Of a DNA stretch of 64,000 nucleotides, positions 1,070 to 54,280 are shown in pieces. Every line of letters starts with the position of its first letter. Position 1 is the first letter of the stretch. The stretch spans positions 112,595 to 176,594 of the forward strand of contig JADKIH010000007.1 of assembly GCA_016721305.1 (NCBI GenBank), in the 5' to 3' direction. Source of the stretch: Bacteroidota bacterium. GTDB lineage: Bacteria; Bacteroidota; Bacteroidia; AKYH767-A; 2013-40CM-41-45. The notes beneath the pieces are model-generated. The model was not told the origin of the DNA. It was given only the letters and a program-made list of their open reading frames with translations, and ran no database searches. The position numbers and the translations under genes were made by a program.

Positions 1070-2484
1070 ATTCTATTTTTATAAAGGTCAATTAAATCGA
1101 GAATATTCTTGTCGTTTTCCATGACAGGAGCATACTCGAAGACCAGGTGGCAAAGGTGGACATTTTTCTCCAGTGCTTCGGCAAGAATCTGATACGATTC
1201 ATGAACTTTTCCGCACATGTAGAGATAGCAAGCCATCCTATAATTTAATTCAGCGTTATCGGGGTGATAAATCATTCCTGCCTGAAGTAATTCAACTGCT
1301 TCATCGGCACGATTATCAACCATGAGAAGGTGAGAATATTCAATCCAGATATCGGCATTTTCAGGTTCGAGTTCCAGCACTTTTTTGTAACTCATTTCAG
1401 CCGAAATGTAATTGTCGAGATGATATTCTGCGTCACCTAGAGCAAACCAGAATTCCGCGTTATTGGAATCGATCTCCAGGGCTTTTTTGATATAATGTGT
1501 TGCTTCAAACCAGCGTTCTTCATTCTGAAGAGTCACGCCGATTCCCAACCAGGCTTCAGCAATATTCGGATCGAGTTTCGTAGCCTTTTTGTAATAGTCA
1601 CGTGCACGATGCATATCCTCGAGCTGTTCGTAGCATTCGCCGATATTGTAATAAGTGAGAGCGTCGGGAGCTTCGAATTCGAATGTCTTTTTGTAGCATT
1701 CGATAGCTTCGGCATAACGATTCAAGTTCGCCAGTGTGTTTCCTTTATTGAAATACGCTGAAGAGAAATCGTCTTTGATAACCAGGCAATAATCGTAGGC
1801 ATTTAAGGCATCTTCATAGCGATTCAACCTGTTATAGACATTGCCCAAATTGTACCATGCAGGGAAGCTATACGGCTGCAGATCGATGAAACGAGTATAG
1901 AAGTCGATGCTATCGGTAAAACGCTCCGTGAATTCAAAACAGAATGCGATCTCATAAAGAGCGACATCATTTTCCGGATTGTTTTCCAAACTCAATTTGA
2001 GATAGGAGATAGCCTTATCATAATCGCCCCAGCTTTCATAAACATAGGCAAGATTCAGATAAAGCATATCCAGTTCCTCGGCAAGAGGAATGGCTTTATT
2101 GAAGCTCTCGATAGCCTCTTCAAATTTTTGAAGTTGGGAATAGATGGAGCCTCTGATCATATACAGATCGGGATCTAACGGTGTTATCCGCTCAGCCTTA
2201 TCCAATATACTGAGAGCTTCATCTAAACGCTCGACCATAGCCAAAAGCTGAGCTTTGCGCAGAAGAAATTCTACCGAAGCCGGATGCTGGTCCTGAGCGA
2301 ATTCAACAACCTGCAATGCTTTTACAGGATCGTTTTTTTCGATGTAGTAATCTATAATATTGAGAAATGCGTCGACGTCAAAGAAGTAAGCATCTTTGTT
2401 GCGAATCATCTCTTCGTACCGTTCAATGGAATGGCGGATCTGATTTTGCTGGTCGCCTGGACCAAGGAATTCTTCTTCTTCCAT
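1066..2484 (-). CDS. tetratricopeptide (TPR) repeat protein
   Basis: 472 aa with repeated AxxYYNLGxxYxxLxxYxEAxxxYxKAL 34-residue units. Confidence 0.65.
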   Translation of the reverse strand: MEEEEFLGPGDQQNQIRHSIERYEEMIRNKDAYFFDVDAFLNIIDYYIEKNDPVKALQVVEFAQDQHPASVEFLLRKAQLLAMVERLDEALSILDKAERITPLDPDLYMIRGSIYSQLQKFEEAIESFNKAIPLAEELDMLYLNLAYVYESWGDYDKAISYLKLSLENNPENDVALYEIAFCFEFTERFTDSIDFYTRFIDLQPYSFPAWYNLGNVYNRLNRYEDALNAYDYCLVIKDDFSSAYFNKGNTLANLNRYAEAIECYKKTFEFEAPDALTYYNIGECYEQLEDMHRARDYYKKATKLDPNIAEAWLGIGVTLQNEERWFEATHYIKKALEIDSNNAEFWFALGDAEYHLDNYISAEMSYKKVLELEPENADIWIEYSHLLMVDNRADEAVELLQAGMIYHPDNAELNYRMACYLYMCGKVHESYQILAEALEKNVHLCHLVFEYAPVMENDKNILDLIDLYKNRI

Positions 2485-2605
2485 TTAGTAAAATTAGGTC
2501 TCGAAAAAGATTGTTACCCCCAAATATAGTCAAAAAAAGCGAATTCCGCGCTATTGAGTTGCGAGTTTTCCACAGGGGGGTGCGGGCTTCGACAAGCTCA
2601 GCCAA

Positions 2606-2671
2606 CGGGTTGCGGGTTGCGGGGTGCGGGTTACGGGTTGCGGGTTACGGGTTACGGGTTACGGGTTGCGG
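2606..2671. repeat. Tandem heptamer array (GGGTTRC)x9, G-rich on the + strand
   Basis: Direct read: gggttgcgggttgcggggtgcgggttacgggttgcgggttacgggttacgggttacgggttgcgg. Confidence 0.85.
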
Positions 2672-2756
2672 AAGAGGCTCTCTGCCAATTAAAGCCGTTA
2701 TAGTAGATTTTCGCCCAATTTCGCCATCTCACCCTCAATTATAACGACCAGGAGGT

Positions 2757-2862
2757 TACACTTACTTACTAATTACTAATTACCAATTGCTACTTACTAC
2801 TAGCTACTTACTACTTACTACTTACTACTTACTACTTACTACTTACCACTTACTACCTACTA
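2757..2862. repeat. Tandem heptamer array (TACTTAC)n with leader taattactaattaccaattgctac
   Basis: Direct read. About 12 units lie 28 bp upstream of the recF ATG. Confidence 0.85.
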
Positions 2863-2889
2863 ATCCCACACATTCCGTACCTTAGCCCC

Positions 2890-4041
2890 ATGCATCTCCA
2901 TTCCCTTTCTCTTGTCAATTTCAAGAATTACCCCGCTGCTGAGCTAATGTTCTCGTCAGGGGTAAATGCCTTTACGGGGAACAATGGAGAAGGTAAGACC
3001 AATTTGTTGGATGCGGTGCATTATCTGGCACTCTGCAAGAGCTATTTCAATCCATCCGATGTCCAGAATATCCGTCAGGGCGAGGACTTTTTCGTCGTTC
3101 AGGGAAATTTTGAACTGAACAATGTTCCCGAGATGGTGAGTTGCGGATTCAAGCGCGGACAGAAGAAAGTCTTGAAGCGTAATCAGAAGGAATATGAACG
3201 CTTGGCAGATCATATCGGAATGATACCCGTGGTGATGATTTCGCCAACCGATTCGACATTGATTACCGATGGAAGTGAAGAACGTCGAAAATTTCTCGAC
3301 AGCATCATCTCTCAATTTAATCCGCATTACTTGGACGATCTGATCAATTACGGACGAGTACTTTCGCAGCGAAATGCGTATTTGAAACAAGCATTTCAGT
3401 CGCGCCGTTTCGATATCGATTCATTATCTATTTGGGATGAACAACTCATTCCGCTTGGCAACCGAATTTTTGATGTCCGAAAAGAATTCGTTGAAGCGAT
3501 GCTGCCGATTTTCCGACATTACTACAATTTCATTTCAGGCGGGAAAGAGGAAGTTGAAATTCGTTACGATTCATATCTGGTCGACGATACATTCTCCGTT
3601 CAACTGGCGAATGCATTGGAGAAAGACCGGATTATGCAGTATACAACCGTTGGTACTCACAAAGACGATTTGCTCTTTATGATCGGCGGATTCCCTGCGA
3701 AGCGATTTGCATCGCAAGGACAGCAGAAATCATTCTTAGTCGCTCTGAAATTGGCACAATTCGATTACATGGCGAAGCAAAAAGGAATGAAGCCCATTCT
3801 TTTACTCGACGATATTTACGACAAGCTCGACGACAAACGCATTTCGCGATTGATGGAATTAGTGAGCAAGCATAATTTCGGGCAAATATTTATTACCGAT
3901 ACACACACCGAACGCGTTCTCGAAATTTTCGATCGTATTCAGGTTGACATAAAGTGTTTCTTTTTGCAAGGCGGAAACATAGAGGTATGTAAAGACGTAC
4001 ATCACCCTTCATACGCAGCTGAAAATTCAAATCCGTCATGA
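2890..4041 (+). CDS. recF: DNA replication and repair protein RecF
   Basis: N-terminal LSLVNFKNY...FTGNNGEGKTNLLDAV Walker A and an SMC-like C-terminal LLLDDI motif. 383 aa. Confidence 0.9.
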   Translation: MHLHSLSLVNFKNYPAAELMFSSGVNAFTGNNGEGKTNLLDAVHYLALCKSYFNPSDVQNIRQGEDFFVVQGNFELNNVPEMVSCGFKRGQKKVLKRNQKEYERLADHIGMIPVVMISPTDSTLITDGSEERRKFLDSIISQFNPHYLDDLINYGRVLSQRNAYLKQAFQSRRFDIDSLSIWDEQLIPLGNRIFDVRKEFVEAMLPIFRHYYNFISGGKEEVEIRYDSYLVDDTFSVQLANALEKDRIMQYTTVGTHKDDLLFMIGGFPAKRFASQGQQKSFLVALKLAQFDYMAKQKGMKPILLLDDIYDKLDDKRISRLMELVSKHNFGQIFITDTHTERVLEIFDRIQVDIKCFFLQGGNIEVCKDVHHPSYAAENSNPS

Positions 4042-4810: not shown

Positions 4811-4847
4811 GTGATTATATTGGTTGTTTTATTTTTTTTTTAGAGTT

Positions 4848-4913
4848 AGCTGATTAGCTGATTAGCTGATTAGCTGATTAGCTGATTAGCTGATTAGCTG
4901 ATTAGCTGATTAG
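4848..4913. repeat. Octamer tandem array (AGCTGATT)x8
   Basis: Direct read. It lies between the pntB stop and the ndk start. Confidence 0.85.
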
Positions 4914-5016
4914 AAATGCGTAGTACTTTCCAATCTTATGGTTACAAAAACCGCAATGTAAATAATAAATGAAATTATGAGAATGTCCGAATTTAACATG
5001 TAGGTGAGAAGCTCGT

Positions 5017-5043
5017 ATTAGCTAATCAACTAATCAGCTAATC
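5017..5043. repeat. Inverted partner array (AGCTAATC / AATCAGCT)x3
   Basis: tattagctaatcaactaatcagctaatc is the reverse-complement orientation of the 4848-4913 array. The two arms are separated by about 105 bp and could form a hairpin. Confidence 0.75.
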
Positions 5044-6444
5044 TTAAAGAGTCTTAATCTCATTCACCAACTTCGTCAACGCATCCTTAGCATCTCCGAA
5101 AAGCATGCTGGTCTTAGGATCGTAGAAGAGTTGATTTTCGATACCGGCATAACCTGCATTCATTGAACGCTTGTTGATGATGATATGCTGAGCAGCTTCG
5201 ACATCTAAAATAGGCATTCCGTAAATAGGAGAGGACGGATCATTTTTCGCAGCAGGGTTTACAACGTCATTGGCACCAACAACAAGTACTACATCTGTAG
5301 AAGCAAATTCCGGATTGATTTCTTCCATTTCCGAAAGCTTTCCGTAATCGACATTACTTTCTGCAAGAAGAACATTCATGTGACCCGGCATACGACCGGC
5401 AACAGGGTGGATGGCATACTTTACCTGAACACCGCGTTCTTCGAGAATCAGTTCAAGTTCGTGAATGATATGTTGTGCCTGTGCTACGGCTAAGCCGTAA
5501 CCGGGAACGATAATAACTTTCTTAGAGTAATTAAGGAGAACGGCTGCATCACTAATCGTGATGTCTTTGATTGAACCTTTGGTAGATGCTCCGGCACCTG
5601 CAGCAGCAGTTTCACCAAATGCACCGAAAATGACATTGAAGAGCGGACGATTCATCGCTTTACACATCGCAAGTGTCAAAATCGTACCTGCCGATCCTAC
5701 AAGGATACCACCGGTAAGCATAACCTGATTGTTGTAAAGGAAACCACCGAATGCAGCTGCCAGTCCGGTGAATGAGTTCAATAATGAAATTACGACCGGC
5801 ATATCGGCTCCACCAATCGGAACTACGAAGAAGATACCATACATTAAAGCTAAAGCAAACGTACCGTACAACCACATACTTGAATCTGTTCCCGAAGCCA
5901 CAACGAATACGGCAACACCAACTGTAACAATCATCAGAATTAAGTTGATGATATTGTAATTAGGCAGACGAATTGATTTGCTGAGTGTACCATTCAGTTT
6001 CATGAAGGCAATCATACTACCGGAAAAAGAAACGCTACCGATAATGAGTCCTGCCATGATAATAGAGATACGATCTGTATGACCGACATTGTGGTGAAAC
6101 TCGAGTAAAGAGATCAAAGCCGCACAGGCACCACCCATACCGTTAAACAACGATACAAGTTCGGGCATAGCTGTCATCTTAACTTTCTTAGCGGTCATCC
6201 AGCCAATCGTTGTACCGATGGCCAGTCCACCGAAGATTAGTCCGAGATTGACCGAAGTACGGAATGTTTCGCCATTCGGATTTTCATAAATGAAAATTGT
6301 TCCGAGAATAGCAAGCGTCATTCCGAAAGCCGCATAAAGATTTCCTTTACGAGCGGTTTGAGGATTACTCAGCATTTTTAGTCCCAGCACAAAAGTGACT
6401 GAGGCTATTAAATAGATAATGTCTAATATATATTGATTCGTCAT
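5044..6444 (-). CDS. pntB: NAD(P) transhydrogenase subunit beta
   Basis: 466 aa, multi-TM N-terminus plus the C-terminal NADP(H)-binding domain (GYGLAVAQAQH). Confidence 0.9.
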   Translation of the reverse strand: MTNQYILDIIYLIASVTFVLGLKMLSNPQTARKGNLYAAFGMTLAILGTIFIYENPNGETFRTSVNLGLIFGGLAIGTTIGWMTAKKVKMTAMPELVSLFNGMGGACAALISLLEFHHNVGHTDRISIIMAGLIIGSVSFSGSMIAFMKLNGTLSKSIRLPNYNIINLILMIVTVGVAVFVVASGTDSSMWLYGTFALALMYGIFFVVPIGGADMPVVISLLNSFTGLAAAFGGFLYNNQVMLTGGILVGSAGTILTLAMCKAMNRPLFNVIFGAFGETAAAGAGASTKGSIKDITISDAAVLLNYSKKVIIVPGYGLAVAQAQHIIHELELILEERGVQVKYAIHPVAGRMPGHMNVLLAESNVDYGKLSEMEEINPEFASTDVVLVVGANDVVNPAAKNDPSSPIYGMPILDVEAAQHIIINKRSMNAGYAGIENQLFYDPKTSMLFGDAKDALTKLVNEIKTL

Positions 6445-13329: not shown

Positions 13330-13440
13330 TTCAATCTGCACTATTCAATCTTCCTTAAAAAACCCGCCTCAATCTTCAATTTTCAATATTCAATCTTCAA
13401 TAAATACGTCTCCAATCTTCAATAAATTCCGCTACTTTTG
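13330..13440. repeat. Degenerate tandem repeat (TTCAATCTTCAATA-like) in the ffh upstream region
   Basis: Direct read: ctcaatcttcaattttcaatattcaatcttcaataaatacgtctccaatcttcaataaa. Confidence 0.45.
13431..13438 (+). promoter_or_regulatory. putative Bacteroidetes sigmaA -7 element (TACTTTTG)
   Basis: Matches TAnnTTTG about 30 bp upstream of the ffh ATG. Confidence 0.25.
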
Positions 13441-16357: not shown

Positions 16358-16365
16358 GGAATTTA

Positions 16366-16435
16366 TGAATTCAGAATTATGAATTATGAATCTGGTTTCT
16401 GAATTTTAAATTCTAAATTTTGAATTACATTTCCG
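16366..16435. repeat. Degenerate AT-rich repeat (GAATTATGAATT-like) between queE and the OmpA gene
   Basis: Direct read. Confidence 0.4.
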
Positions 16436-16493: not shown

Positions 16494-18444
16494 ATGAAAA
16501 TTAAAAGCTTCTTACTGACCCTGCTCATCACTCTCTCACTCGCGACATACGCACAAAATAAGGAGGAGTTAACTTCATCTGTACCAAAAGCCGTTAGAGC
16601 ATTCGAAACAGCTTTGAAATACTACGATGGCAGGTTGAACCAAAAAGCAGTTGAAGCACTTGATGAGGCAATCGAAGCCGACCCTAAATTTGTAGAAGCA
16701 CATACATTGAAGGGCAACATTCTCTCCGACATGAAAGAATATGAAAAGGCCATTGCCAGTTATAAGAATGCAATTACAGCGAGTCCTGATTTTTTCCCAA
16801 ACACGTATTACTCACTCGGAAAATTACAATACCGAGCCGGGCATTATGAAGAAGCAAAATCTTCGTTCACAAAATTTTTAAGTTATGATAAAATCAGCCC
16901 GGGGCTAAAGCAAGGAGCAAATGTTCTGAGTGCGAATTGTGATTTTGCAATCAATGCAGTTAAAAATCCTGTAGCATTTGACCCGACGAATATGGGTGAT
17001 AGCATCAACTCAAAAGAAGACGAGTATTTCCCATCGTTTACAGTAGATGGACAATCTTTGCTCTTCACTCGTAAATTACCTTCAGGGAGAACATTTCAGG
17101 AAGACTTTTATAAATCAGAGTTAAAAGGATCTTCGTGGTCATTTGCAAAAGCTGTTACCGAGTTAAATACACCGGCTAACGAAGGAGCGTCTTTTATGAC
17201 GGCCGATGGACAATACTTATTTTTTGCCTCTTGTGAAGAGCTTGGAAATCCTGATTCGCGTCCGACCAAGGGAAGCTGCGATATTTTCATTGCTAAAAAA
17301 GTCGGCGATAAATTTATGAATCCGCGTGATTTGCTTGAACCGCTGAATTCAGGTGGATGGGAAAGTCAGCCATCATTTTCAACAGATGGAAGAACAATTT
17401 ACTTCGTAAAAAAAGTGAAAGAAGCTTCGAATCAAACTCACACCGATATTTATATTTCTCAATTAGACGATAAAGCAAATTGGAGCGTTCCTGTTTCAGT
17501 AAGTGATAAGATCAATACAAAGATGAATGAAAGCGCCGTCTTTATTCATCCCGATGATCAGACATTTTATTTCACATCAAACGGACATCCGGGAATGGGA
17601 GGAGAGGATATTTTTTATTCACGTCGTCAGATCGATGGAACTTGGGGCGATCCTGTAAACTTAGGCTATCCGATAAATACCGTCAACGATGAATTTGGTT
17701 TTGCCGTAAGTCCCGATGCTAAAACAGGGTACTTTGTTTCTGATCGTCCGGGCGGTTTGGGTGGTCTCGATTTATATTCATTTCCATTGTACGAAAGTGC
17801 GAGACCAAAAATCGTAACATACATGAAAGGTCGAGTTTTCGATAGTGAAACGAATGCACCTTTGGATGCATCTTTTGAATTGATTGATCTCGGTACTGGA
17901 AAAGTTATGGTTCGATCTGTGTCTGATTCCAAAACCGGTGAATTTCTTTTATGCCTTCCAACCGGCAAAACAATATGCGCTCAATGTTTCACGTTCCGGC
18001 TATTTATTCTATTCCGATCACTTCGAATTGAAAGATCCTGCTACAGCAAGTAAGCCTGTCAAAAAAGATATTCCGCTCAAACCAATCAAAGCCGGACAAA
18101 CCATTGTCCTCAACAATATCTTTTACGAAACCGACAAGTTCGATTTAAAGCCGGAATCAAAAATTGAATTGGATCGATTAGTAAGTTTCCTGAACAACAA
18201 TCCGAAAGTCCATTTCGAAATCAGCGGTCACACCGATAATGTAGGCGGAAAAGAGTACAACAAAACGCTCTCTGAAAAGCGTGCAAAAACCGTCTATGAT
18301 TATTTAGTCACCGCCGGAATTCCTGCAACAAGAATGAGTTCAAAAGGTTTTGGAGACACCGTCCCTGTTGCCGAAAACACATCCGATGCCGGTAGAGCGA
18401 AGAATCGGAGGACGGAGTTTAAGGTGACTTCTTTGGACAATTAG
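16494..18444 (+). CDS. OmpA family protein with N-terminal TPR and TolB-like beta-propeller repeats (frameshift near 17950-18050)
   Basis: Two overlapping ORFs. The C-terminal OmpA-like domain reads NNIFYETDKFDLKPES...HTDNVGGKEYNKTLSEKRA. Confidence 0.75.
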
Positions 18445-18548
18445 CTAATGGGCTGATTAGCTAATTAGCTAATGATGTTTCATCGGAAGCAGTTGGTGTA
18501 GCGCCATCAGCTAATCAGCTAATCAGCTAATCAGCTAATCAGCTAATT
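18441..18548. repeat. Inverted pair of (AGCTRATT)n arrays forming a potential long hairpin between the convergent OmpA and kdsA genes
   Basis: Left arm ttagctaatgggctgattagctaattagctaatga; right arm atcagctaatcagctaatcagctaatcagctaatcagctaatt. Confidence 0.75.
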
Positions 18549-19354
18549 GGCAACAGCACGTATCGCCACCAACTTCACCAACAACCCCTCCAGCAAATCC
18601 AAATGCAGCATATTAGCGCCGTCGGATTTTGCGTTTTTCGGGTCGGGGTGAGTTTCTACGAAGATGCCGTCGAAGCCCGTAACAATTCCTGCTTTAGCGA
18701 TGAGTTCTATGAGATCGGGACGACCGCCGGTAACACCGGAAGCTTGATTGGGTTGTTGCAGTGAGTGTGTGATATCGAGAATGACAGGAACATTATTCTT
18801 CTTCATTTCAACAACGCCACGGTAATCAACGATCAAATCCTGATAGCCGAACATCGTTCCGCGCTCGGTGAGCATGACGTGATTATTTCCGGCACCGCGA
18901 ACTTTATCCACAGCAAATTTCATTGACTCGGCTGCGAGAAATTGTCCCTTCTTGATGTTTACGGTTTTGCCCGTTTCTGCAGCAGCAACTAAAAGTTCTG
19001 TCTGGCGACAAAGAAAAGCCGGGATCTGCAGTACATCGACGTACTTCGCAGCAATTGCAGCGTCATCGCTTTCGTGAATATCGGTTACAATGGGCACCTG
19101 AAAAGTATCACGAACTTTTTCAAAATCTCCAATGCGTTTTCATCGCCTATACCGGTGAATGAATCCGTACGAGTACGATTTGCTTTGCGATAGCTAGCTT
19201 TAAAAATAAAAGGAATTTTTAAACGGTCTGTAATTTCTTTAACTCGTTTTGCGATTCCCATCGTCATTTCTTCGCTTTCAACTACACATGGTCCTGCAAG
19301 GAGGAAGAAATTTCCGGAATCGGTATTTTTTATAAATGGAATATGATTCAACAT
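18543..19354 (-). CDS. kdsA: 3-deoxy-8-phosphooctulonate synthase (1-bp deletion in an A6 run near 19128)
   Basis: Two ORFs. The N-terminal half reads LNHIPFIKNTDSGNFFLLAGPCVVESEE. Restoring one A gives the continuous ILKKVRDTFQVPIVTDIHE. Confidence 0.85.
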
Positions 19355-19358
19355 CGCA

Positions 19359-20600
19359 TTAGAAATATTTGCCCAAAGATACAAAAGCCCCTTGAGCGCG
19401 TCCGTTTTTGAGGAAGAGCGCATCTACATAATCGCTGCCTATACGCAGTCTCCAGCCCTGGCGGGAATACTGATACGACAATCCGATATGAAATCCGCTA
19501 TATCCACCGTAACGCAGCTTTAGTGCTGCTGTATGATTGGAAGTGATTGTATAAGTATGAAGCTGATAAATCAGCAATTTAGATTCTGCATTGAATGTTT
19601 GCGACAGACCTGTCTCCATCGTCCATTTCTTCTTGACAGGAATTGAATAACTCACCTGGATGGTTGCCGGCAACCAGGTTGTTTCTGCCAGATAAGTTCT
19701 GTTTTTCAAATAAGGCTGAACTAAAGAGGAATCAAGATTGATGGATGATTCGACAGTGTCGGCAAAATTAAATAACTCGGAGATATCAACGCCTTCGAAT
19801 CGAAAAGCTGTATCAGCCGTAACGAACGACGACTTCGAATTCCAGCTGATGAAACCGATATTAGATGCTTGCACCCGAAGCAATCGTTTCTTACTGTCTG
19901 TCCACTTGAAACCGAATTGCATCGTTCCGCCAAGTCCATTCACATCAGTGATATTATTTTTGACGGAGTCTGAACGATGAATGTGCAGATTCGCGTCGAG
20001 ATCGATATAGTCACCAAACTCCGAAGTAAAAACAGTTGCCCTCGGTGCTTCGATCAAAAGATATTTTTGGCCTTTATTAATTCCAAAACCGCCCCACCAT
20101 TCAATAATATTCGTTTCATGTCGGAACCAGTGGCCAAAAGTAAAGGTAGCTTGCTGATAGTTTAGTTGTCGAAATAAAAAATCAGATAAGTCGGCAGTTT
20201 TTTTAGCGTAATTTTTATTTCCCCGGAAATAAACTTCAAACACATCTTTGCTGAAATCGGAACTGAAGTGATAGTTGTTAGAGAAATTAACCTCGTACCA
20301 AACATGACGCAAACCAAACATTGAATCAGGTTTATGCTTGTATTGAACACCGGCTGAAAAACCGGCTCCGAAATAATTTTTGTCTTTGAGCTTCGGGCTC
20401 ACCTGATCTTTCATATCATCCGTAATGAATGAATTTCGGAAGTATGTCGAGCCCAATTCGTTTGTCAGAGCATTAGATCCGAAGAAATACTCGGTATTAA
20501 TTCCAATAAAATTCACTGCCGTCGAATCCGAATAAGATTTCGACGAAGCAGCAAACGAAAGTATAAGGAATAAAGAGAGAAGCGAGAATATTCTTTTCAC
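19359..20600 (-). CDS. hypothetical outer-membrane beta-barrel protein
   Basis: Signal peptide MKRIFSLLSLFLILSFAASS, alternating amphipathic strands and a C-terminal aromatic (..GKYF). No family recognised. Confidence 0.45.
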   Translation of the reverse strand: MKRIFSLLSLFLILSFAASSKSYSDSTAVNFIGINTEYFFGSNALTNELGSTYFRNSFITDDMKDQVSPKLKDKNYFGAGFSAGVQYKHKPDSMFGLRHVWYEVNFSNNYHFSSDFSKDVFEVYFRGNKNYAKKTADLSDFLFRQLNYQQATFTFGHWFRHETNIIEWWGGFGINKGQKYLLIEAPRATVFTSEFGDYIDLDANLHIHRSDSVKNNITDVNGLGGTMQFGFKWTDSKKRLLRVQASNIGFISWNSKSSFVTADTAFRFEGVDISELFNFADTVESSINLDSSLVQPYLKNRTYLAETTWLPATIQVSYSIPVKKKWTMETGLSQTFNAESKLLIYQLHTYTITSNHTAALKLRYGGYSGFHIGLSYQYSRQGWRLRIGSDYVDALFLKNGRAQGAFVSLGKYF

Positions 20601-22205: not shown

Positions 22206-22244
22206 CAGGGTAAAGATGGGAAAAAATGTCCAATTCTCTCCCAA

Positions 22245-22289
22245 ATTAGCTAATTAGCTAATTAGCTAATTGATTTAACAGCTAATCTT
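22245..22289. repeat. (AGCTAATT)x4 palindromic-phase octamer array
   Basis: Direct read: aaattagctaattagctaattagctaattga...cagctaatc. Confidence 0.75.
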
Positions 22290-22297
22290 AAAAAGAA

Positions 22298-22337
22298 CAA
22301 ACGCCGCAAGCCTTACGGGGCTTTTCGGCGTTTGAAG
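22298..22337. terminator. Stem-loop aaacgccg...cggcgttt followed (on the minus strand) by a T-rich tract
   Basis: Perfect 8-bp inverted repeat with an inner partial stem. Its function is uncertain. It lies in the long ribBA leader. Confidence 0.35.
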
Positions 22338-22595
22338 TCAACCTTACGGGGTTGGGTTTAAACCATATGCTGTTTAGGTTATGACACAATATTATAGCAT
22401 TTTGAAGGCGATAGTTTGCTGAGATGGCGCATTCCTTACATCGGTAATTTTCTCTTGGCGATGAGTTTAAAATTGTCTGCAGATCTAGAAATTTCGTCAA
22501 AAAGATCAATCTGGAAAGGAAGTTAACATGTAAGAAATCGCTCTTTTTCAATCAAAAGTGACTTAAAAATGAGGAAAACAATAGTCTGATGAACT

Positions 22596-27302: not shown

Positions 27303-27372
27303 GTAGCGAGGGGGGGAGTCGAACCCCCGACCTCAGGGTTATGAATCCTCTCTACCATCGAGCACCCCAATT
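27303..27372 (-). tRNA. tRNA-like element: canonical T-arm and 3' acceptor, CAT-containing anticodon loop, defective 5' half
   Basis: Minus strand reads GGGGTGCTCGATGGTAGAGAGGATTCATAACCCTGAGGTCGGGGGTTCGACTCCCCCCCTCGCTA. The T-arm GGGGGTTCGACTCCCCC is canonical, but the D-stem is missing and the 5' acceptor is not complementary. Confidence 0.4.
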
Positions 27373-27379
27373 TTTTCTT

Positions 27380-27447
27380 GGGTCGAAACCCCGTCCGCCG
27401 TGGCGGATATGAATCCTGCGCTCTAACCATCTGAGCTACCTCGCCGG
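27380..27447 (-). tRNA. tRNA-like 5' half (acceptor + D-arm + anticodon loop) lacking a T-arm and 3' acceptor
   Basis: GGCGAGGTAGCTCAGATGGTTAGAGCGCAGGATTCATATCC then a GCCACGGCGG hairpin. Its 5' acceptor GGCGAGG is complementary to the 3' acceptor CCTCGCT of element 27303-27372. Confidence 0.35.
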
Positions 27448-28906: not shown

Positions 28907-29001
28907 TCTCTAATTTCTAATTACCAATTTCTACTTTCTACTTACTACTTACTACTTACTACTTACTACTTACTACTTACTACTTACAACTTACTACTTC
29001 C
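28907..29001. repeat. (TACTTAC)x~9 heptamer array with leader ctaatttctaattaccaatttctac
   Basis: Direct read. Same leader and repeat unit as 2757-2862. Confidence 0.85.
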
Positions 29002-43151: not shown

Positions 43152-43184
43152 TGTAAGTTGTCAGGTAAGTAGTAAGTAGTAAGT
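43152..43184. repeat. (GTAAGTA)n, the reverse-orientation TACTTAC heptamer array 32 bp upstream of fmt
   Basis: Direct read: gtaagttgtcaggtaagtagtaagtagtaagttgaccaatt. Confidence 0.75.
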
Positions 43185-43385: not shown

Positions 43386-43440
43386 CAACTTACTACTTAC
43401 AACTTACTACTTACGAATTTCTACCCACTACCTACAACTA
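43386..43440. repeat. (TACTTAC)n degenerate array downstream of the MATE gene
   Basis: Direct read: caacttactacttacaacttactacttacgaatttctacccactacctac. Confidence 0.7.
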
Positions 43441-43445
43441 GCTGG

Positions 43446-44781
43446 CTACAGAGTCTTCAACTTCTTCCAAACCCCCGACCTCAAATAAGCATAACAAGCT
43501 GCTCCGGCGAAGAGCCAGTAAATAATTTCGGAGCCCCAAACGGATTCGACACTGCCTTTGAAAACGAAGGTGAAAAGATAAATGTAAACGAGATAGAGAA
43601 AGATTGAAACGATCTCAATGTACAAAGCCATGCGTGTGGCACCGGTACCGCTAACGGCGTTGATGGAGACGATGGCAAACGAAAAGAAAATTAAGGCGAT
43701 GTCTACTATCTGCATAGTATGCAACGAATCATGTATCAATTGTTGATCATTGGTAAAAATGCCGAGTATTTCTTCCGGAAAAAGTAGATTGATCAGAATC
43801 ATCACTACAGCGACAATCATGGTCAGGCTGATGATGCGATTCAAAAGCACCATCACTTCATCTTTACGTCCCTGGCCGATAATATTGCTCACCATACTAT
43901 TCGCCGAAACCGAAAATCCCCAGAATGGTGTCATGCTGATCATATAACTTCCGCGAACTACATTCGACATGGCCAATTCGTGTGCACCGATTTTCTCGAT
44001 GAAGACAAAGAAAACAAACCATGCGCCTATTGAAAGCAGATTTTGTACGATCAACGGTAACGATAAAGTAATGATTTTCGAGACTTCCTCACGATTAAAG
44101 CTCCGGAATCTGAATAATTGAAATTCCTTGATCTCCTTTTCGAAAACAGTGAATAAAATCAAATACAACAAAGAGATAAATTCTGCCACGGAAGAAGCCA
44201 GGCCGGCACCTTTAATTCCCATAGCGGGACTTCCCCAATGACCAAAGATGAATGCATAGCCGCAAAGAATATTTACACCGGGCCATCAGAAACGAATAAT
44301 AGCCATACACTCTTGGACGGGCAATCCCAACATAAAGCGATCTGAATGCCGTTGCAAGCATCACAAAGATGATTCCATAAGATCGATAACATAAGAAATC
44401 GCTTACTGCATCTATAAGCTCGTGACCATTTAACAGAAATGGAAGCAGAGGAGGAGCTATCCATTTTAAAAAGACAAAAAGAAAAATAGCAAGAGCAGAA
44501 AGAATAATCAGACTCTGATCAAAGACTTCACCAATTGCCTGATGATTTTTTTCACCGGCACGACGTGAAATGATTATCTGTGTACCAATGCCTATCGAAA
44601 TCCCTATCATCGCAAACACAAAATACAACACACCGCCAAGAGCCGAAGCACCCAATTCCGTCTCGCCGATGCGACCAAGGAAAACGGTGTCGGTTACATT
44701 CACGACTGTCATGGCAAAGCTCCCGATCATTACCGGAAGCGCCATTCTGAAAATTTCGCGATAGCTAGTGTTTACCTGCAT
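43446..44781 (-). CDS. MATE family efflux transporter (frameshift near 44212-44290)
   Basis: Two ORFs of 12-TM topology that resemble a MATE transporter when joined. Confidence 0.65.
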
Positions 44782-50064: not shown

Positions 50065-52676
50065 TTAAACCTCTACCGTTTTCCTGATATTCTTAAAAAC
50101 GAATTCGTTTTTACTATTTATGTCCAATTCGATGTGATCTTCCTTGTTAATCGAACCGGCCAGAATTTGCTTCGATAATTCATTCAAAACACGTTTTTGC
50201 ATGACGCGTTTCAATGGGCGGGCACCGAATTGCGGATCAAATCCGAGCTGTGACAACCATTCAATGGCTTTTTCACTTGCTGTGATTTGAATTTCATTTT
50301 GGCCTAAGAGCTCCTGAAGTTTTGTGAATTGAATTCTCACGATATCTTCAACTTCATCGCGTGTCAGCGGTTGGAACATGATCACTTCATCAATGCGATT
50401 CAAAAACTCCGGACGAATCGTCTTCTTCAGCAAATCAAACACCTTCGTTTTGCTCCGTGCAATCACTTCTTCCTTATTCAGCTCATTCATTTCTTCAAAA
50501 CTTTCCTGAATGAGGTGAGAACCGATATTGGAAGTCATGACGATGATTGTGTTCTTGAAATTAGCCGTACGTCCTTTGTTGTCCGTTAAGCGACCATCAT
50601 CCAATACCTGCAATAAGATGTTGAATACATCCGGATGTGCTTTTTCAATCTCATCGAGCAAAATTACAGAGTAGGGACGACGTCGAACCGCTTCGGTAAG
50701 CTGTCCGCCTTCATCGTAGCCTACGTAACCGGGAGGTGCACCTACGAGTCGAGATACTGCATGGCGCTCCTGATATTCGCTCATATCGATGCGAGTCATC
50801 GCACTTTCGTCGTTGAATAAAAACTCAGCCAGTGCTTTTGCCAATTCGGTTTTTCCGACACCTGTTGTTCCAAGAAAGATGAAAGAACCGATTGGTTTTT
50901 TCATATCCTGTAAGCCTGCACGACTGCGACGAACAGCATCACTCAACGCTTCAATGGCTTCGTTCTGTCCGATGACACGCTTGTGCAATTCTTCTTCCAG
51001 ATGGAGTAATTTCTCCGTTCACTTTGAAGCATCCGTTGCACCGGAATGCCGGTCCAGCGAGCAACTACTTCTGCAATATCTTCCGAATCGACTTCTTCTT
51101 TAATCAAAGCCTTATCGGTTTGCATACTTGCCAGTTGTTTTTCGAGCTTGTGTAATTGCTCTTCGGCTTCAACGACGCGTCCATAGCGGATTTCGGCAAC
51201 CTTTCCATAATCACCGCTGCGTTCAGCCTGCTCAGCTTCAATCTTGAGCATTTCTACTTTTTCTTTATTGGATTGAATGCCTTGAACAACGGCCTTTTCA
51301 GATTCCCAACGAGCTTTGATTTGATTTCGTTCTTCATTCAGATTTGCAAGTGTCTCATTCAACTCCTGCAATTTTTTCTGATCCTTTTCGCGCTTGATCG
51401 CTTCACGTTCGATTTCAATCTGCATAATGCGACGATTTAATTCATCCAGCTCTTCCGGAACTGAATCAATTTCCAATCGCAACTTAGAAGCTGCTTCGTC
51501 CATTAGGTCAATAGCTTTATCCGGGAGGAATCGATCGGAGATGTAACGCTCGCTTAATTCAACGGCGGCAATAATTGCTTCGTCTTTGATACGAACTTTG
51601 TGATGTGTTTCATAACGTTCTTTCAGCCCGCGTAGAATTGAGATGGCATCTTCCGCAGATGGCTCTTCTACCATGACTTTCTGAAAACGACGTTCGAGTG
51701 CTTTATCTTTTTCTACATACTTCTGGTATTCGGCAAGTGTAGTAGCACCGATAGCTCTTAATTCGCCACGTGCAAGAGCAGGCTTGAGAATGTTCGCAGC
51801 ATCCATAGCACCTTCACCGCCACCGGCTCCAACGAGCGTATGTATTTCATCGATGAAGAGAACGATATTCCCTTCGGCGCTGATTACTTCTTTCACAACG
51901 GCTTTTAATCGTTCTTCGAACTCACCTTTATATTTCGCACCGGCGATGAGTGAACCCATGTCGAGCGAGAAAATTTGTTTCGTTTTTAAATTCTCCGGAA
52001 CGTCGCCATTGATAATACGATGGGCGAGTCCTTCGGCAATAGCTGTCTTTCCAACACCGGGTTCACCGATTAATATCGGATTATTTTTGGTACGACGAGA
52101 TAAAATCTGAAGCACACGTCGAATTTCTTCATCGCGACCAATAACAGGATCAAGCTTACCCTGACGGGCGAGCTCATTCAGATTCTTTGCGTACTTGTTT
52201 AATGAATTGTACGTCTCTTCAGCGCTGGCGCTCGTCACTTTCGAACCCTTTCGTAATTCGGAGATGGCAGCCTTTGCATCCTTTTCATTCAGTCCTTCGC
52301 CCTTCAGCATTTCGCTTACTTTATCGCGAATACTAAACATGGCAAGAAATAAATGTTCGAGTGAAACAAACTCGTCACCTAAACCTTTTGCAAGAGCAAT
52401 TGATTTTTGAATAAGCTTGTTCGATTCGTCAGACAAATAAATCCGTCCGCCCTGAACTTTCGGAAGAGAGTCGATAATCTTCAGTGTGGCTGTTTGGATT
52501 TTATCCGGACTCACATTGCTTTTCTTAAGAATGAAAGGCAACACGTTTTCATCAACTTCGAATATTCCTTTGAGTATATGAGCAGGTTCAATCGATTGCT
52601 GTCCGTTACTCTCGGCCAGTTGTTGAGCAGACTGTATGGCTTCCTGCGATTTGATGGTGAAATTGTTCAGATTCAT
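50065..52676 (-). CDS. clpB: ATP-dependent chaperone ClpB (1-bp deletion in a G3 run near 50960)
   Basis: Two ORFs with both AAA+ modules ([18 protein letters not shown]) and a coiled-coil M domain. Restoring one G gives the continuous ...[24 protein letters not shown]. Confidence 0.9.
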
Positions 52677-52880
52677 AATAGGAGATTTTGTGATCCCGCT
52701 CGCTCAAAGAGACTGCCAGACCAATAAAGGGTAAAAGTAAGGGGCAAAATGGCATTTTCACTAAAAATTGAGCGCCAATCTGGCCGAGAAAATTGAGTTT
52801 TTCACCCAAAATGGCCGAAAAAAAACCTGAGCTTACGGGCTCAGGTATTATAAACTAACCGGAAATGGAAACTACTTTTT

Positions 52881-52910
52881 GATTAGCGGATATGCTGATT
52901 AGCTAATTAT
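52881..52910. repeat. (AGCTRATT) unit cluster overlapping the 3' end of the small T9SS gene
   Basis: Direct read: gattagcggatatgctgattagctaattat. Confidence 0.6.
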
Positions 52911-53272
52911 AAGGCGGCGGGTAAATCGTTTGCCTGAAATATTTAATTCGACTATATAAATTCCTTCGTTTAAAAATTCCCGGTCGAGAGATTCGCTGTA
53001 AGTACCGCTCCTTGAACCGGAAGGTGAATGTCCTTTACAATCTTTCCTGTGATTTCATACACACGGATTCTGGTATCGCTATTTGCGGAGATGTGATAGA
53101 TAAGATTGATGCTATTTTCACTTTTTGAATAGTACGCTGATGTGAACTCATCAGCAGGAAGTATTTCGGAAGTATTTATTGTTGTCTGTTCGGTTGTTGT
53201 CTGAATTGCCTTCGATTCAAGTGAAGCAAATAAGACAAAGAACAGAACGCAGATTGTGTAGATTGTTTTCAT
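52899..53272 (-). CDS. small secreted protein consisting of a signal peptide plus a T9SS C-terminal domain (1-bp deletion near 53000)
   Basis: N-terminal MKTIYTICVLFFVLFASLES. After frame correction the tail reads ...GTYSESLDREFLNEGIYIVELNISGKRFTRRLIIS. Confidence 0.5.
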
Positions 53273-53509: not shown

Positions 53510-54153
53510 TATGATAAAAGAATCAATTGTAGCCTATGCAAGAAACAAGACAAACGCATCGATGCATACATCGCAAAGAGTGCTGACTTTGCAAACAGCC
53601 AATTCTGACGCACATCAGAAAGCTAGTTCACAAAAGTTGTCCAAAAGTCGAGGAGACAATTAAGTGGGGATTTCCAAACTTCGTATACGAAGGTGCAATT
53701 CTTTGTTTTATGGCTTCATTTAAAAAGCACTGTTCATTTGGTTTCTGGAAAAGGTTCGTTGATGACAGAACTATCGGAAACCATAAATGAAAAAGCGAAA
53801 CAGCCATGGGTAATTTCGGAAAACTCACTTCCGTTAAAGATCTTCCGTCTGATAAAAAAATGGCCGGCTACATAAAGTCAGCCATGAAATTAAACGAAGA
53901 AGGAGTGAAATTACCAAACAGAGCACCGGTAAAAAAAGGAAGCAAAGAAATAGTCGTTCCCGATTACATTCTTAAAGCTCTTTCCAAAAACAAAAAAGCC
54001 CAAGCCACCTTCGAAGCTTTTGGTTACAGTCACAAAAAAGAATACGTCCAGTGGATCGAAGAAGCCAAAACTGAGCCGACACGCAACAAACGAATTGCGA
54101 CGATGATGGAATGGTTGAAGGAGGGGAAGGGGAGGAATTGGAAGTACTCCTAA
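53510..54153 (+). CDS. DUF1801 + YdeI/OmpD-associated family protein (3 or more frameshifts)
   Basis: Across three frames the pieces read KRIDAYIAKSADF / AKQPILTHIRKLVHKSCPKVEETIKWGFPNFVYEGAILCFMASFKKHCSFGFWKGSLM / ...YILKALSKNKKAQATFEAF. Confidence 0.5.
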
Positions 54154-54155
54154 AC

Positions 54156-54280
54156 GATTAGCTGATTTGATGATTTGCTGATTAGCTAATGTCATACAAA
54201 AGTGCAGTCACCCGCATAAAAAGTAATAATGTAAGTTTGACCCTGACGGCCCCATCAGCTAATTAGCTAATTAGCTAATT
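54156..54280. repeat. Inverted pair of (AGCTRATT)n arrays with a ~65-bp spacer between the convergent YdeI-like and NlpC/P60 genes
   Basis: Left arm cgattagctgatttgatgatttgctgattagctaatg; right arm catcagctaattagctaattagctaatt. Confidence 0.75.

What the first reader, a model, noticed from the sequence alone, without database searches (positions are those of the whole stretch)
4848..5043. New REP-like element family: phase-palindromic octamer arrays (AGCTRATT)n at 7 or more gene ends, mostly as inverted pairs
Arrays of the octamer AGCTGATT / AGCTAATT recur at 4848-4913 plus 5017-5043, 18441-18548, 22245-22289, 52881-52910 and 54156-54280. AGCTAATTAGCT is its own reverse complement, so the arrays are self-complementary in phase. 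Three sites are explicit inverted pairs with 30-105-bp spacers, sitting exactly between convergent or tandem gene ends. That is the geometry of REP/BIME elements and long bidirectional terminator hairpins. Seven occurrences in 64 kb implies hundreds genome-wide, and hence an active spreading mechanism, for example a RAYT-like transposase elsewhere in the genome, or a dedicated binding protein.
Basis: seen in the sequence. Interest (0 to 1): 0.6.

Follow-up and report, generated by a model that had tools for sequence, protein, structure and literature searches.

The report
Hairpin-forming octamer repeat arrays at gene ends
Short tandem arrays of the 8-base unit AGCTRATT sit right at the ends of genes in this Bacteroidota genome and in many relatives, oriented so that the RNA folds into a hairpin after stop codons; they behave as a new family of bacterial simple-sequence repeats, not as a transposase-driven REP element.

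Summary
(AGCTRATT)n arrays lie at all five reported sites: 25 hits to a two-unit pattern against 0.01 expected. Independent short-read metagenome contigs contain them too, so they are not an assembly artefact.

The family is widespread: 83 of 93 genome loci returned by a pattern scan come from Bacteroidota, mainly Chitinophagales.

Arrays hug stop codons. Fifty lie within 10 nt of a stop, against 22.7 expected, and the stop is often inside the array.

The asymmetric G variant is oriented by transcription:
- After stops the mRNA reads AGCUGAUU, a perfect G·U hairpin (35:6).
- Before start codons it reads the non-folding AAUCAGCU (12:3). Fisher p = 1e-5, replicated in a second data set.

Arrays behave as slippage-prone simple-sequence repeats. 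I saw a 16-nt unit indel within the species. Close relatives lack the arrays or carry a different array at the same site. Some loci hold mosaics with 7-mer arrays.

Spacers are unique, and none of 50 window ORFs scanned is a transposase.

Best reading: a new octamer family of intergenic long simple-sequence repeats under RNA-structure selection, REP-like in position and probably in effect, but not a REP/RAYT member. The function is inferred, not shown.

The parts
4846..4913 (+). 8.5 perfect units of AGCTGATT. On the minus strand, where the genes lie, it reads AAUCAGCU. It starts 37 nt upstream of the ndk start codon (4810).
   Evidence: The plus-strand RNA folds at -47.1 kcal/mol; the minus-strand RNA, which is the gene sense, folds at only -17.3. 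This orientation fits the '5'-adjacent' class.
4914..5016 (.). Unique 103-nt spacer between the two arrays of site 1.
   Evidence: It has no similarity to any other spacer or locus. The whole 192-bp block from 4846 to 5043 is absent from relatives whose PntB is at least 90% identical; there the pntB-ndk gap is 41 nt.
5017..5043 (-). Three degenerate units (GATTAGCTGATTAGTTGATTAGCTAAT) in sense orientation. They begin 1 nt after the pntB stop codon (5044-5046).
   Evidence: In a pntB-ndk co-transcript they pair with the 4846-4913 array (-62 kcal/mol, z = -7.6).
18439..18474 (+). Array AATTAGCTAATGGGCTGATTAGCTAATTAGCTAATG. It contains the TAG stop (18442-18444) of the TPR/PD40/OmpA-family gene.
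   Evidence: The sense RNA hairpin is -16 kcal/mol, z = -4.9.
18505..18548 (-). Five AGCTGATT units in sense orientation. They contain the TAG stop (18543-18545) of the kdsA-like (DAHP_synth_1) gene.
   Evidence: The sense hairpin is -30.2 kcal/mol, z = -8. The same-species contig L099 has 3 units instead of 5, an exact 16-nt indel.
22244..22288 (.). Palindromic (AATTAGCT)3.5 plus an isolated AGCTAATC. It lies in a divergent intergenic region, about 38 nt upstream of the probable ATG (22205-22203) of a minus-strand gene and 300 nt upstream of ribBA.
   Evidence: The start-codon assignment is my reading of the sequence (MKRSIRNCLILL...), not a tool result.
52881..52910 (+). Degenerate array GATTAGCGGATATGCTGATTAGCTAATT. 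In intact copies of the gene it overlaps the TAA stop (52899-52901, minus strand) of a small protein with a T9SS sorting domain. It is of the antisense type for that gene, so it is an exception to the rule.
   Evidence: L100-L104 give the intact 124-aa gene ending ...ATT AGC TAA inside the array. The sense RNA is unstructured at -3.5 kcal/mol.
52825..52846 (-). Canonical intrinsic terminator (8-bp GC-rich stem, TTACGG loop, U-run), 35 nt downstream of the site-4 array.
54156..54195 (+). Degenerate sense array GATTAGCTGATTTGATGATTTGCTGATTAGCTAATG. It starts 3 nt after the stop (54151-54153) of the OmdA/DUF1801-family gene.
54253..54280 (-). Sense array AATTAGCTAATTAGCTAATTAGCTGATG. It contains the TAA stop (54271-54273) of the NlpC/P60 gene, whose last codons ATT AGC are array sequence.
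   Evidence: It is identical in four other metagenome contigs.

Best explanation
These are members of a lineage-wide family (Bacteroidota, above all Chitinophagales) of intergenic long simple-sequence repeats with the 8-bp unit AGCTRATT.

Shown:
- Arrays gain and lose whole units. They appear, disappear or are replaced by other 7-8-bp arrays between close relatives. This is the behaviour of replication-slippage satellites, not of transposed copies.
- Arrays are strongly concentrated at, or overlapping, stop codons. Because the unit has stops in all frames, it can abut or even supply the stop.
- The asymmetric G variant is oriented by transcription. After stop codons the transcript reads AGCUGAUU, which is self-complementary through G·U pairs and folds into a long perfect hairpin. 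Before start codons it reads AAUCAGCU, which does not fold.

Inferred:
- Selection acts on the RNA. A stable stem-loop is favoured, or at least retained, in the 3' UTR directly after the stop. There it would act like an E. coli REP stem-loop: a barrier to 3'-5' exonucleases, a partial insulator between cistrons and, when within about 15 nt of the stop, a brake on the terminating ribosome.
- The folding orientation is removed next to start codons, because it would block initiation.
- 'Inverted pairs' arise in two ways. Two convergent genes can each carry their own array. Alternatively a 3'-type and a 5'-type array can sit in one tandem-gene spacer, as at pntB-ndk.
For: - Position: 50 arrays lie within 10 nt of a 3' gene end, against 22.7 +/- 2.7 for random placement in the same intergenic regions (maximum 32 in 2000 trials). 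5' ends show no excess, 12 against 15.6. In one search, 32 of 156 array-to-3'-end distances overlap the stop codon, and one search shows the junctions.
- Context: arrays are enriched between convergent genes and depleted between divergent genes. Counts are 36 convergent, 59 tandem and 13 divergent, against a background of 75, 256 and 91.
- Orientation: among arrays next to a 3' end only, sense to antisense is 24:2 in genome loci and 11:4 in an independent metagenome scan. Among arrays next to a 5' end only it is 3:6 and 0:6. Combined Fisher p = 1e-5.
- Folding: (AGCUGAUU)5 gives -20.5 kcal/mol and (AAUCAGCU)5 gives -7.5. Over 58 stop-adjacent arrays the sense RNA is the more stable in 34, the less stable in 9 and equal in 15 (Wilcoxon p = 1.3e-5).
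- Transcription, not replication: at convergent pairs the two arrays point in opposite directions within 100 bp.
- Not only translation: arrays with the same sense orientation lie between tRNA genes in L033/L076 and just upstream of a tRNA gene in L092.
- Interchangeable with hairpins: the L090 array occupies the place of an A-tract/hairpin/T-tract terminator in its ortholog L012. The L037 array occupies the place of a unique long hairpin in L013.
- Conservation: the array-bearing intergenic region is 100%, 98.4% and 93.8% identical where coding flanks are 92%, 87.8% and 85.3%.
- SSR behaviour: a 16-nt indel within the species. A 192-bp presence/absence difference at pntB-ndk. An octamer array in relatives where the window has heptamer arrays. 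Mosaic arrays. Periods 7 and 8 dominate the TRF output across loci.
Against: - No transcript data were available. Transcription through the arrays and any effect on RNA are inferred.
- Only the A/G position shows a strong strand asymmetry. The position-1/4 pair shows none (11 against 10) and the 3/2 pair only a trend (15 against 6, p = 0.08). The G asymmetry would also fit retention of two stop codons per unit.
- Variant arrays such as (TGCTAATG)n keep the same orientation but are not self-complementary.
- Two of the window's own arrays are of the antisense type, including one that overlaps a stop codon (52881-52910).
- Non-palindromic heptamer arrays in the window also start 5-6 nt after stops. 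Closeness to stops may therefore partly reflect where junk DNA is tolerated.
- Gene calls in the loci are crude ORF calls, and some loci are orthologs or duplicates.
- The explanation does not say why this one octamer, rather than another palindromic one, recurs across several orders.
Confidence: 0.6

Rival explanations
1. REP/BIME-type mobile element: palindromic units spread by a RAYT-like Y1 transposase encoded elsewhere, with the inverted pairs as the mobile REPIN-like unit.
For: - The element is multi-copy, extragenic and self-complementary, and three sites hold pairs.
- The whole paired block at pntB-ndk is present in the window and absent from close relatives, as an insertion would be.
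- The same unit occurs in many genera.
Against: - The units are 8-bp head-to-tail repeats whose number varies by whole units.
- Spacers are unique and have no shared core, and no target-site duplication is evident at the pntB-ndk junction.
- At two of the three paired sites, each member of the pair belongs to a different convergent gene.
- Most arrays elsewhere are solitary.
- No transposase domain was found in 50 window ORFs.
- Only 3 of 2.9 million viral contigs carry the array.
- Whether the genome holds a RAYT gene could not be tested.
Confidence: 0.08
2. Functionless slippage satellites. Arrays arise and expand neutrally wherever intergenic DNA is unconstrained, mostly just after stop codons. 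The only selection is removal of the hairpin-forming orientation next to start codons.
For: - Arrays turn over rapidly and replace each other between close relatives.
- Many other 7-8-bp arrays occur in the same genomes, some also starting 5-6 nt after stops.
- Mosaic higher-order arrays exist.
- Similar positional biases are reported for other bacterial long SSRs (PMC4692102).
Against: - A neutral model predicts about 1:1 orientation at 3' ends, but 35:6 is observed.
- Arrays are more conserved than coding flanks in three ortholog comparisons.
- An identical unit is kept across several orders.
- Flanks extend the hairpin more than shuffled flanks do (p = 0.001).
Confidence: 0.22
3. Translational backstop. 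The arrays matter because they carry stop codons in every frame (TGA and TAG in each sense unit). They would catch read-through or frameshifted ribosomes before the 3' end of the mRNA.
For: - Stops lie inside the arrays at four window genes and in 32 of 156 array-to-3'-end distances in the loci.
- The G variant keeps two stops per unit only in the sense strand.
- The position-1/4 substitutions, both of which destroy a stop, are symmetric, as this model predicts.
Against: - Arrays in the same orientation lie next to and between tRNA genes.
- Arrays also lie upstream of start codons and in divergent regions.
- Three to eight units is far more than is needed.
- The antisense unit still provides stops in all three frames over three units, so this model does not explain the 35:6 bias.
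Confidence: 0.05
4. Periodic binding platform. The directional motif [A/T]GCTRAT[T/G], repeated every 8 nt, is read by a Bacteroidota-specific RNA- or DNA-binding protein, and the hairpin potential is secondary.
For: - Non-palindromic variants such as (TGCTAATG)n and (TGATTTGA)n adjoin canonical units in the same orientation.
- The same unit is conserved across orders.
- The asymmetry is specific to one position.
Against: - No candidate protein was identified or tested.
- The reversal of orientation between 3' and 5' gene ends is explained more simply by folding against not folding.
- Unique hairpins and terminators replace arrays at orthologous sites.
Confidence: 0.05

Closest known systems
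Intergenic long simple-sequence repeats of bacteria. These include cyanobacterial STRR heptamers (own knowledge: Mazel et al. 1990), TAACTGA repeats of Beggiatoaceae, Cyanobacteria and some Bacteroidetes (PMC4679880), and GGGAATC / GGGGAYT repeats of Xanthomonas and Nostoc (PMC4692102).
   Same: - Head-to-tail arrays of a 7-8-nt unit, with many loci per genome sharing one unit.
- Almost all are intergenic.
- They lie closer to the upstream ORF than to the downstream one (28 against 160 nt in Xanthomonas; PMC4692102).
- The unit has stops in all frames in one orientation, and some arrays overlap stop codons (PMC4679880).
- Close relatives lack the array at the same site (PMC4679880; here).
- The phylogenetic distribution is patchy and no mobility mechanism is known.
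   Different: - The unit is an octamer and is self-complementary in phase, so the array itself is a hairpin. TAACTGA repeats are predicted to be unstructured, and GGGAATC repeats form G-quadruplexes.
- Orientation flips with the gene end, folding after stops and non-folding before starts.
- TAACTGA repeats sit mainly just upstream of start codons.
- I found no paper that describes this octamer.
REP / BIME elements of Enterobacteria and Pseudomonas.
   Same: - Extragenic and multi-copy.
- They form stable RNA stem-loops in 3' UTRs and between cistrons.
- Many lie within 15-20 nt of the stop codon, where E. coli REPs stall terminating ribosomes (as summarised in PMC12306157).
- They occur singly or as inverted pairs.
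   Different: - REPs are 20-40-nt imperfect palindromes with a conserved head, not tandem 8-mers.
- REPs are tied to RAYT transposases, for which there is no evidence here.
- Arrays here change length by whole units and grade into other repeats.
Rho-independent (intrinsic) terminators.
   Same: - A stem-loop just downstream of genes.
- One array (L090) sits between an A-run and a T-run, where its ortholog has a canonical bidirectional terminator.
   Different: - The stems are AU-rich.
- There is no U-tract enrichment after arrays.
- A canonical terminator follows the array at window site 4.
- The hairpin often overlaps the stop codon.
MITEs that carry internal minisatellites, for example the Porphyromonas gingivalis MITE (PMC4596501, title and abstract only).
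   Same: Short repeats in intergenic DNA of a Bacteroidota member. The block at pntB-ndk has inverted ends.
   Different: No conserved core, no defined terminal inverted repeats apart from the arrays themselves, and no target-site duplication seen.

Membership tests
Intergenic long simple-sequence repeats (LSSR / STRR-like) | Head-to-tail tandem copies of a 5-11-nt unit | tested here: met
   TRF finds period 8, 2.6-8.5 copies and 77-100% matches at every site.
Intergenic long simple-sequence repeats (LSSR / STRR-like) | The same unit at many dispersed, mostly intergenic loci of a genome | tested here: met
   There are 7 arrays in 64 kb of the window. MAG STL-BAC4 has 38 arrays in 23 loci. Only 2 of 146 arrays lie inside a called ORF.
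Intergenic long simple-sequence repeats (LSSR / STRR-like) | Length variation by whole units between strains (slippage) | tested here: met
   5 units in the window against 3 in L099, an exact 16-nt gap. This is a single case, and collapse of the repeat in the short-read assembly cannot be excluded.
REP / BIME (REPIN-RAYT) | Unit is a 20-40-nt imperfect palindrome with a conserved 5' tetranucleotide head | tested here: not met
   The element is a tandem 8-mer of variable length with no unique head.
REP / BIME (REPIN-RAYT) | A cognate RAYT (Y1 / IS200-like) transposase gene in the genome, usually flanked by REPs | not testable with these tools
   Only 64 kb of the genome was available. No transposase domain was found in the 50 window ORFs scanned with Pfam.
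REP / BIME (REPIN-RAYT) | Extragenic, at 3' ends or between cistrons, able to form an RNA stem-loop | tested here: met
Intrinsic terminator | GC-rich stem-loop followed directly by a U-tract | tested here: not met
   T makes up 31% of the 10 nt after arrays, which is no enrichment. The stems are AU-rich. By the strict pattern, 2 of 61 array-bearing gene ends and 41 of 481 others have a separate terminator downstream.
MITE | Conserved internal sequence, terminal inverted repeats and a target-site duplication | tested here: not met
   The spacers of the three paired sites match nothing else in the window or in 98 loci. No duplication is seen at the pntB-ndk junction.
Rfam RNA families | A match at or above a family's gathering score | tested here: not met
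   The only hit in the window is a tRNA-like sequence at 27304-27445.

The most novel reading that the evidence does not exclude
The octamer arrays could be a Bacteroidota-wide post-transcriptional control element whose strength is set by unit number. The hairpin, or a dedicated factor that reads the 8-nt periodic GCURAU motif, would set mRNA 3'-end stability, cistron insulation and termination-coupled ribosome stalling. Slippage would give each gene a heritable 'rheostat'. In this phylum, which lacks Hfq, ProQ and Shine-Dalgarno-led initiation (own knowledge), such an element would take the place of REP-like and other 3'-UTR elements.
Probability: 0.12. Interest if true: 0.75.

Novelty: new variant of a known kind. 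Interest (0 to 1): 0.45.

Why it matters
Long simple-sequence repeats with 7-8-nt units are abundant in some free-living bacteria. They have been noted for more than 30 years, yet no function or spreading mechanism has been agreed.

This octamer family offers an unusually clean handle. One base (G or A) makes the unit fold in one RNA orientation only. The orientation that genomes keep depends on whether the array lies after a stop or before a start. That is direct comparative evidence that at least one such repeat family is seen by selection at the RNA level.

It also makes the question testable with simple sense/antisense reporter constructs.

There are practical consequences too:
- These arrays break short-read assemblies; L001 ends inside one.
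- They supply the stop codons and last codons of real genes, which matters for annotating Bacteroidota MAGs.

Tried and rejected
1. Assembly artefact: rejected. Independent short-read contigs carry the arrays.
2. MITE or REPIN with a conserved core: rejected. The spacers are unique.
3. Known RNA family: none at Rfam gathering thresholds.
4. Prior description: an exact-sequence search of the literature found 0 papers. Keyword searches found only related heptamer families.
5. Canonical terminator: there is no U-tract enrichment. A test of whether arrays replace or precede strict terminators was inconclusive, 2 of 61 against 41 of 481, p = 0.21. My earlier impression that arrays usually sit between the stop and a terminator did not survive this count.
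6. Orientation set by replication: rejected. Convergent pairs point in opposite directions.
7. Wobble-asymmetry test at the other paired positions: weak or absent, so it adds little to the position-5 result. My first version of that script mis-assigned owner genes and was redone.
8. Phage or plasmid vector: only 3 viral contigs carry the array.
9. Transposase in the window: none among 50 ORFs. This does not test the rest of the genome.
10. FMN riboswitch upstream of ribBA as an explanation for the hairpins near site 3: no Rfam hit at gathering score.

Full report
**1. The observation**

- Positions 4846-4913 hold 8.5 perfect AGCTGATT units, and 5017-5043 hold three degenerate units in the opposite orientation.
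- Further arrays lie at 18439-18474 and 18505-18548, 22244-22271 plus 22281-22288, 52881-52910, and 54156-54195 and 54253-54280.
- A two-unit pattern with one mismatch allowed hits 25 times, against 0.01 expected from shuffles. TRF finds the same arrays.

AGCTAATT is palindromic in phase.

The window comes from an NCBI MAG labelled 'Bacteroidetes bacterium' (locus tags IPP51_, 204-kb contig). Several of its genes are split by frameshifts but are intact in short-read contigs of the same species. The assembly therefore has indel errors.

The arrays themselves are not artefacts. Contigs from other samples carry them at the same places:
- L001 has the pntB arrays and ends inside the long array.
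- L099 has the site at 18.4 kb.
- L100-L105 have the sites at 52.9 and 54.2 kb.

**2. Anatomy in the window**

Every array is intergenic or overlaps a stop codon.
- At 18.4 kb, two convergent genes (a TPR/PD40/OmpA-family gene and a kdsA-like gene) each end with a TAG that lies inside its own array.
- At 54.2 kb, the NlpC/P60 gene ends ...ATT AGC TAA inside its array. The converging OmdA-family gene stops 3 nt before its own array.
- At 52.9 kb, the intact form of a small gene with a T9SS sorting domain also ends ATT AGC TAA inside the array. A canonical terminator follows 35 nt later.
- At 5.0 kb, a three-unit array starts 1 nt after the pntB stop. The 8.5-unit array lies 37 nt before the ndk start.
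- At 22.2 kb, a palindromic array lies in a divergent region, about 38 nt upstream of a probable start codon.

The 'inverted pairs' at the two convergent sites are therefore two gene-end arrays facing each other.

**3. Distribution**

- 83 come from genomes labelled Bacteroidota. Most are Chitinophagales (Ginsengibacter, Flavisolibacter, Ferruginibacter, Hanamia, Segetibacter, Taibaiella). Others are Lentimicrobiaceae, Bacteroidales, Sphingobacteriales, Saprospirales, Pedobacter and Capnocytophaga.
- One MAG (STL-BAC4) supplies 23 loci holding 38 arrays. That is 0.084 extra arrays per kb beyond the seeding hits, against 0.11 per kb in the window. 'Hundreds per genome' is therefore a fair extrapolation.
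- Only 3 of 2.9 million viral contigs carry the pattern.

**4. Position relative to genes**

I used crude ORF calls on the loci.
- Arrays are enriched between convergent genes and depleted between divergent ones.
- Fifty arrays lie within 10 nt of a 3' gene end, against 22.7 +/- 2.7 for random placement within the same intergenic regions. 5' ends show no excess.
- 32 of 156 array-to-3'-end distances overlap the stop codon. The junctions show TAG, TAA or TGA of the gene lying inside ATTAGCTRATT.

**5. Orientation**

The unit AGCTGATT is not a DNA palindrome, but as RNA it pairs with itself through G·U.
- (AGCUGAUU)5 folds at -20.5 kcal/mol. Its complement (AAUCAGCU)5 folds at only -7.5.
- In genome loci, arrays next to a 3' end only are 24 sense to 2 antisense. 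Arrays next to a 5' end only are 3 to 6.
- An independent scan of metagenome contigs for (AGCTGATT)3 gave 11:4 and 0:6.
- Combined, this is 35:6 against 3:12, Fisher p = 1e-5.
- Across 58 stop-adjacent arrays the sense RNA is the more stable in 34 and the less stable in 9 (p = 1.3e-5).
- Unique flanks extend the hairpin more than shuffled flanks do (p = 0.001).
- At convergent pairs the two arrays have opposite orientation, so the rule follows transcription and not replication.
- Arrays in sense orientation also lie between tRNA genes in L033/L076 and just upstream of a tRNA gene in L092, so translation is not required.
- The window's site 1 fits both halves of the rule: a sense array after pntB, and a non-folding array before ndk. 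The two can also pair with each other in a co-transcript (-62 kcal/mol).

**6. Evolutionary behaviour**

- Within the species, one array differs by exactly two units.
- Relatives whose PntB is at least 90% identical have a 41-nt pntB-ndk gap and no arrays. The 192-bp block in the window is therefore an indel. Its 103-nt spacer matches nothing else.
- In the same relatives, the divergent region next to the recF-like gene carries an (AGCTRATT)4 array. The window has (GTAAGTA)14 and (CAACCCG)9 there.
- Other arrays persist. Three ortholog comparisons show the array-bearing intergenic region more conserved than its coding flanks. A pair with 78.5% identical flanks keeps an array of this family at the same junction, with different units.
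- At orthologous positions an array can be replaced by a canonical terminator (L090 against L012), by a unique long hairpin (L037 against L013), or by nothing (L066).
- Arrays grade into variant 8-mers (GCTAATGT, TGATTTGA, TTAGCACA, AATTAGTT, GATTGGTT). They also form mosaics with heptamers.
- Periods 7 and 8 dominate all tandem repeats in these loci.

**7. Interpretation**

These are slippage-prone long simple-sequence repeats. This class is known from cyanobacteria, Xanthomonas, Beggiatoaceae and a few Bacteroidetes (PMC4679880, PMC4692102). In that class too, arrays lie close to the upstream ORF, can overlap stop codons and are missing from close relatives.

What is new here is an octamer unit that is itself a hairpin, with an orientation rule that points to selection on RNA structure.

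By analogy with E. coli REP stem-loops, which stabilise upstream mRNA and stall terminating ribosomes when within 15 nt of the stop (as summarised in PMC12306157), I infer a REP-like role in the 3' UTR. This is not shown.

**8. Caveats**

- There are no expression data.
- Only the A/G position shows strong asymmetry.
- The G variant also keeps two stops per unit in the sense strand.
- Non-palindromic variants and heptamer arrays share the position next to stops.
- Two of the window's own arrays break the orientation rule.
- There is no U-tract after arrays, and the relation to canonical terminators is unresolved.
- The REP/RAYT mechanism has no support. It could be excluded only for the window, where 50 ORFs scanned carry no transposase.
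- Nothing found here explains why this one octamer recurs across orders.

Noticed in passing
window 2763-2862, 28931-28999, 43165-43184, 43388-43439: A second recurrent repeat family: heptamer (GTAAGTA)n / (TACTTAC)n at four sites, with up to 14 units. It is not self-complementary. The array at 43388-43439 starts 6 nt after the stop of a MatE gene fragment, in the stop-rich orientation.
   Followed up: partly
window 2606-2671, 13369-13401, 16363-16427: Further heptamer arrays: (CGGGTTR)9, (TCAATCT)4.7 and (TTATGAA)9. The last starts 5 nt after the stop of a radical-SAM gene. The genome is generally rich in 7-8-bp tandem arrays.
   Followed up: partly
L095:6393-6425 against window 2484-2890: In close relatives, the divergent region between the recF-like gene and the TPR gene holds an (AGCTRATT)4 array. 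The window holds (GTAAGTA)14 and (CAACCCG)9 between the same conserved anchors. Different repeat families therefore occupy the same intergenic site.
   Followed up: yes
window 16494-18444, 18543-19423, 43446-44781, 50065-52676, 52899-53272, 53806-54153: Several genes are split or truncated by frameshifts: TPR/PD40/OmpA, kdsA-like, MatE, ClpB, the T9SS-tail protein and the OmdA-family gene. Four of these (TPR/PD40/OmpA, kdsA-like, T9SS-tail, OmdA-family) are single intact genes on fetched short-read contigs of the same species (L099: 649 and 270 aa; L100: 124 and 203 aa). MatE has a 444-aa cluster member. No intact ClpB copy was examined. These are most likely long-read indel errors in the MAG, not pseudogenes.
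   Followed up: partly
window 27304-27445 (minus strand): Rfam scores a tRNA at 52 bits with a 70-nt insertion just after a CAU anticodon, but ARAGORN finds no tRNA in the window. The sequence looks like fused partial copies of a tRNA-Met-like gene, with another fragment just upstream.
   Followed up: partly
window 22308-22323, 22339-22354, 52825-52846: Three GC-rich hairpins share the loop TTACGG. One is a clear terminator with a U-run. TTACGGG is also the unit of the heptamer array at 2606-2671.
   Followed up: no
L053:2331-2900; L005:230-760: Higher-order satellites in two Bacteroidales MAGs. L053 has a unit of about 70 bp made of (AGCTGATT)2-4 plus a conserved 40-nt spacer, repeated eight times. 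L005 has alternating blocks of GATTAGCT octamers and GGATTTC heptamers.
   Followed up: no
L017, L085, L078, L025 (junctions listed): Variant octamer arrays such as (TGCTAATG)n, (AATGTGCA)n and (TTAGCACA)n follow canonical units in the same orientation but cannot self-pair. The hairpin model does not explain them.
   Followed up: no
L108 (IMG/VR contig, 13.3 kb): One 'viral' contig carries the octamer array at three separate sites. It may be a Bacteroidota prophage or a misclassified chromosomal fragment.
   Followed up: no
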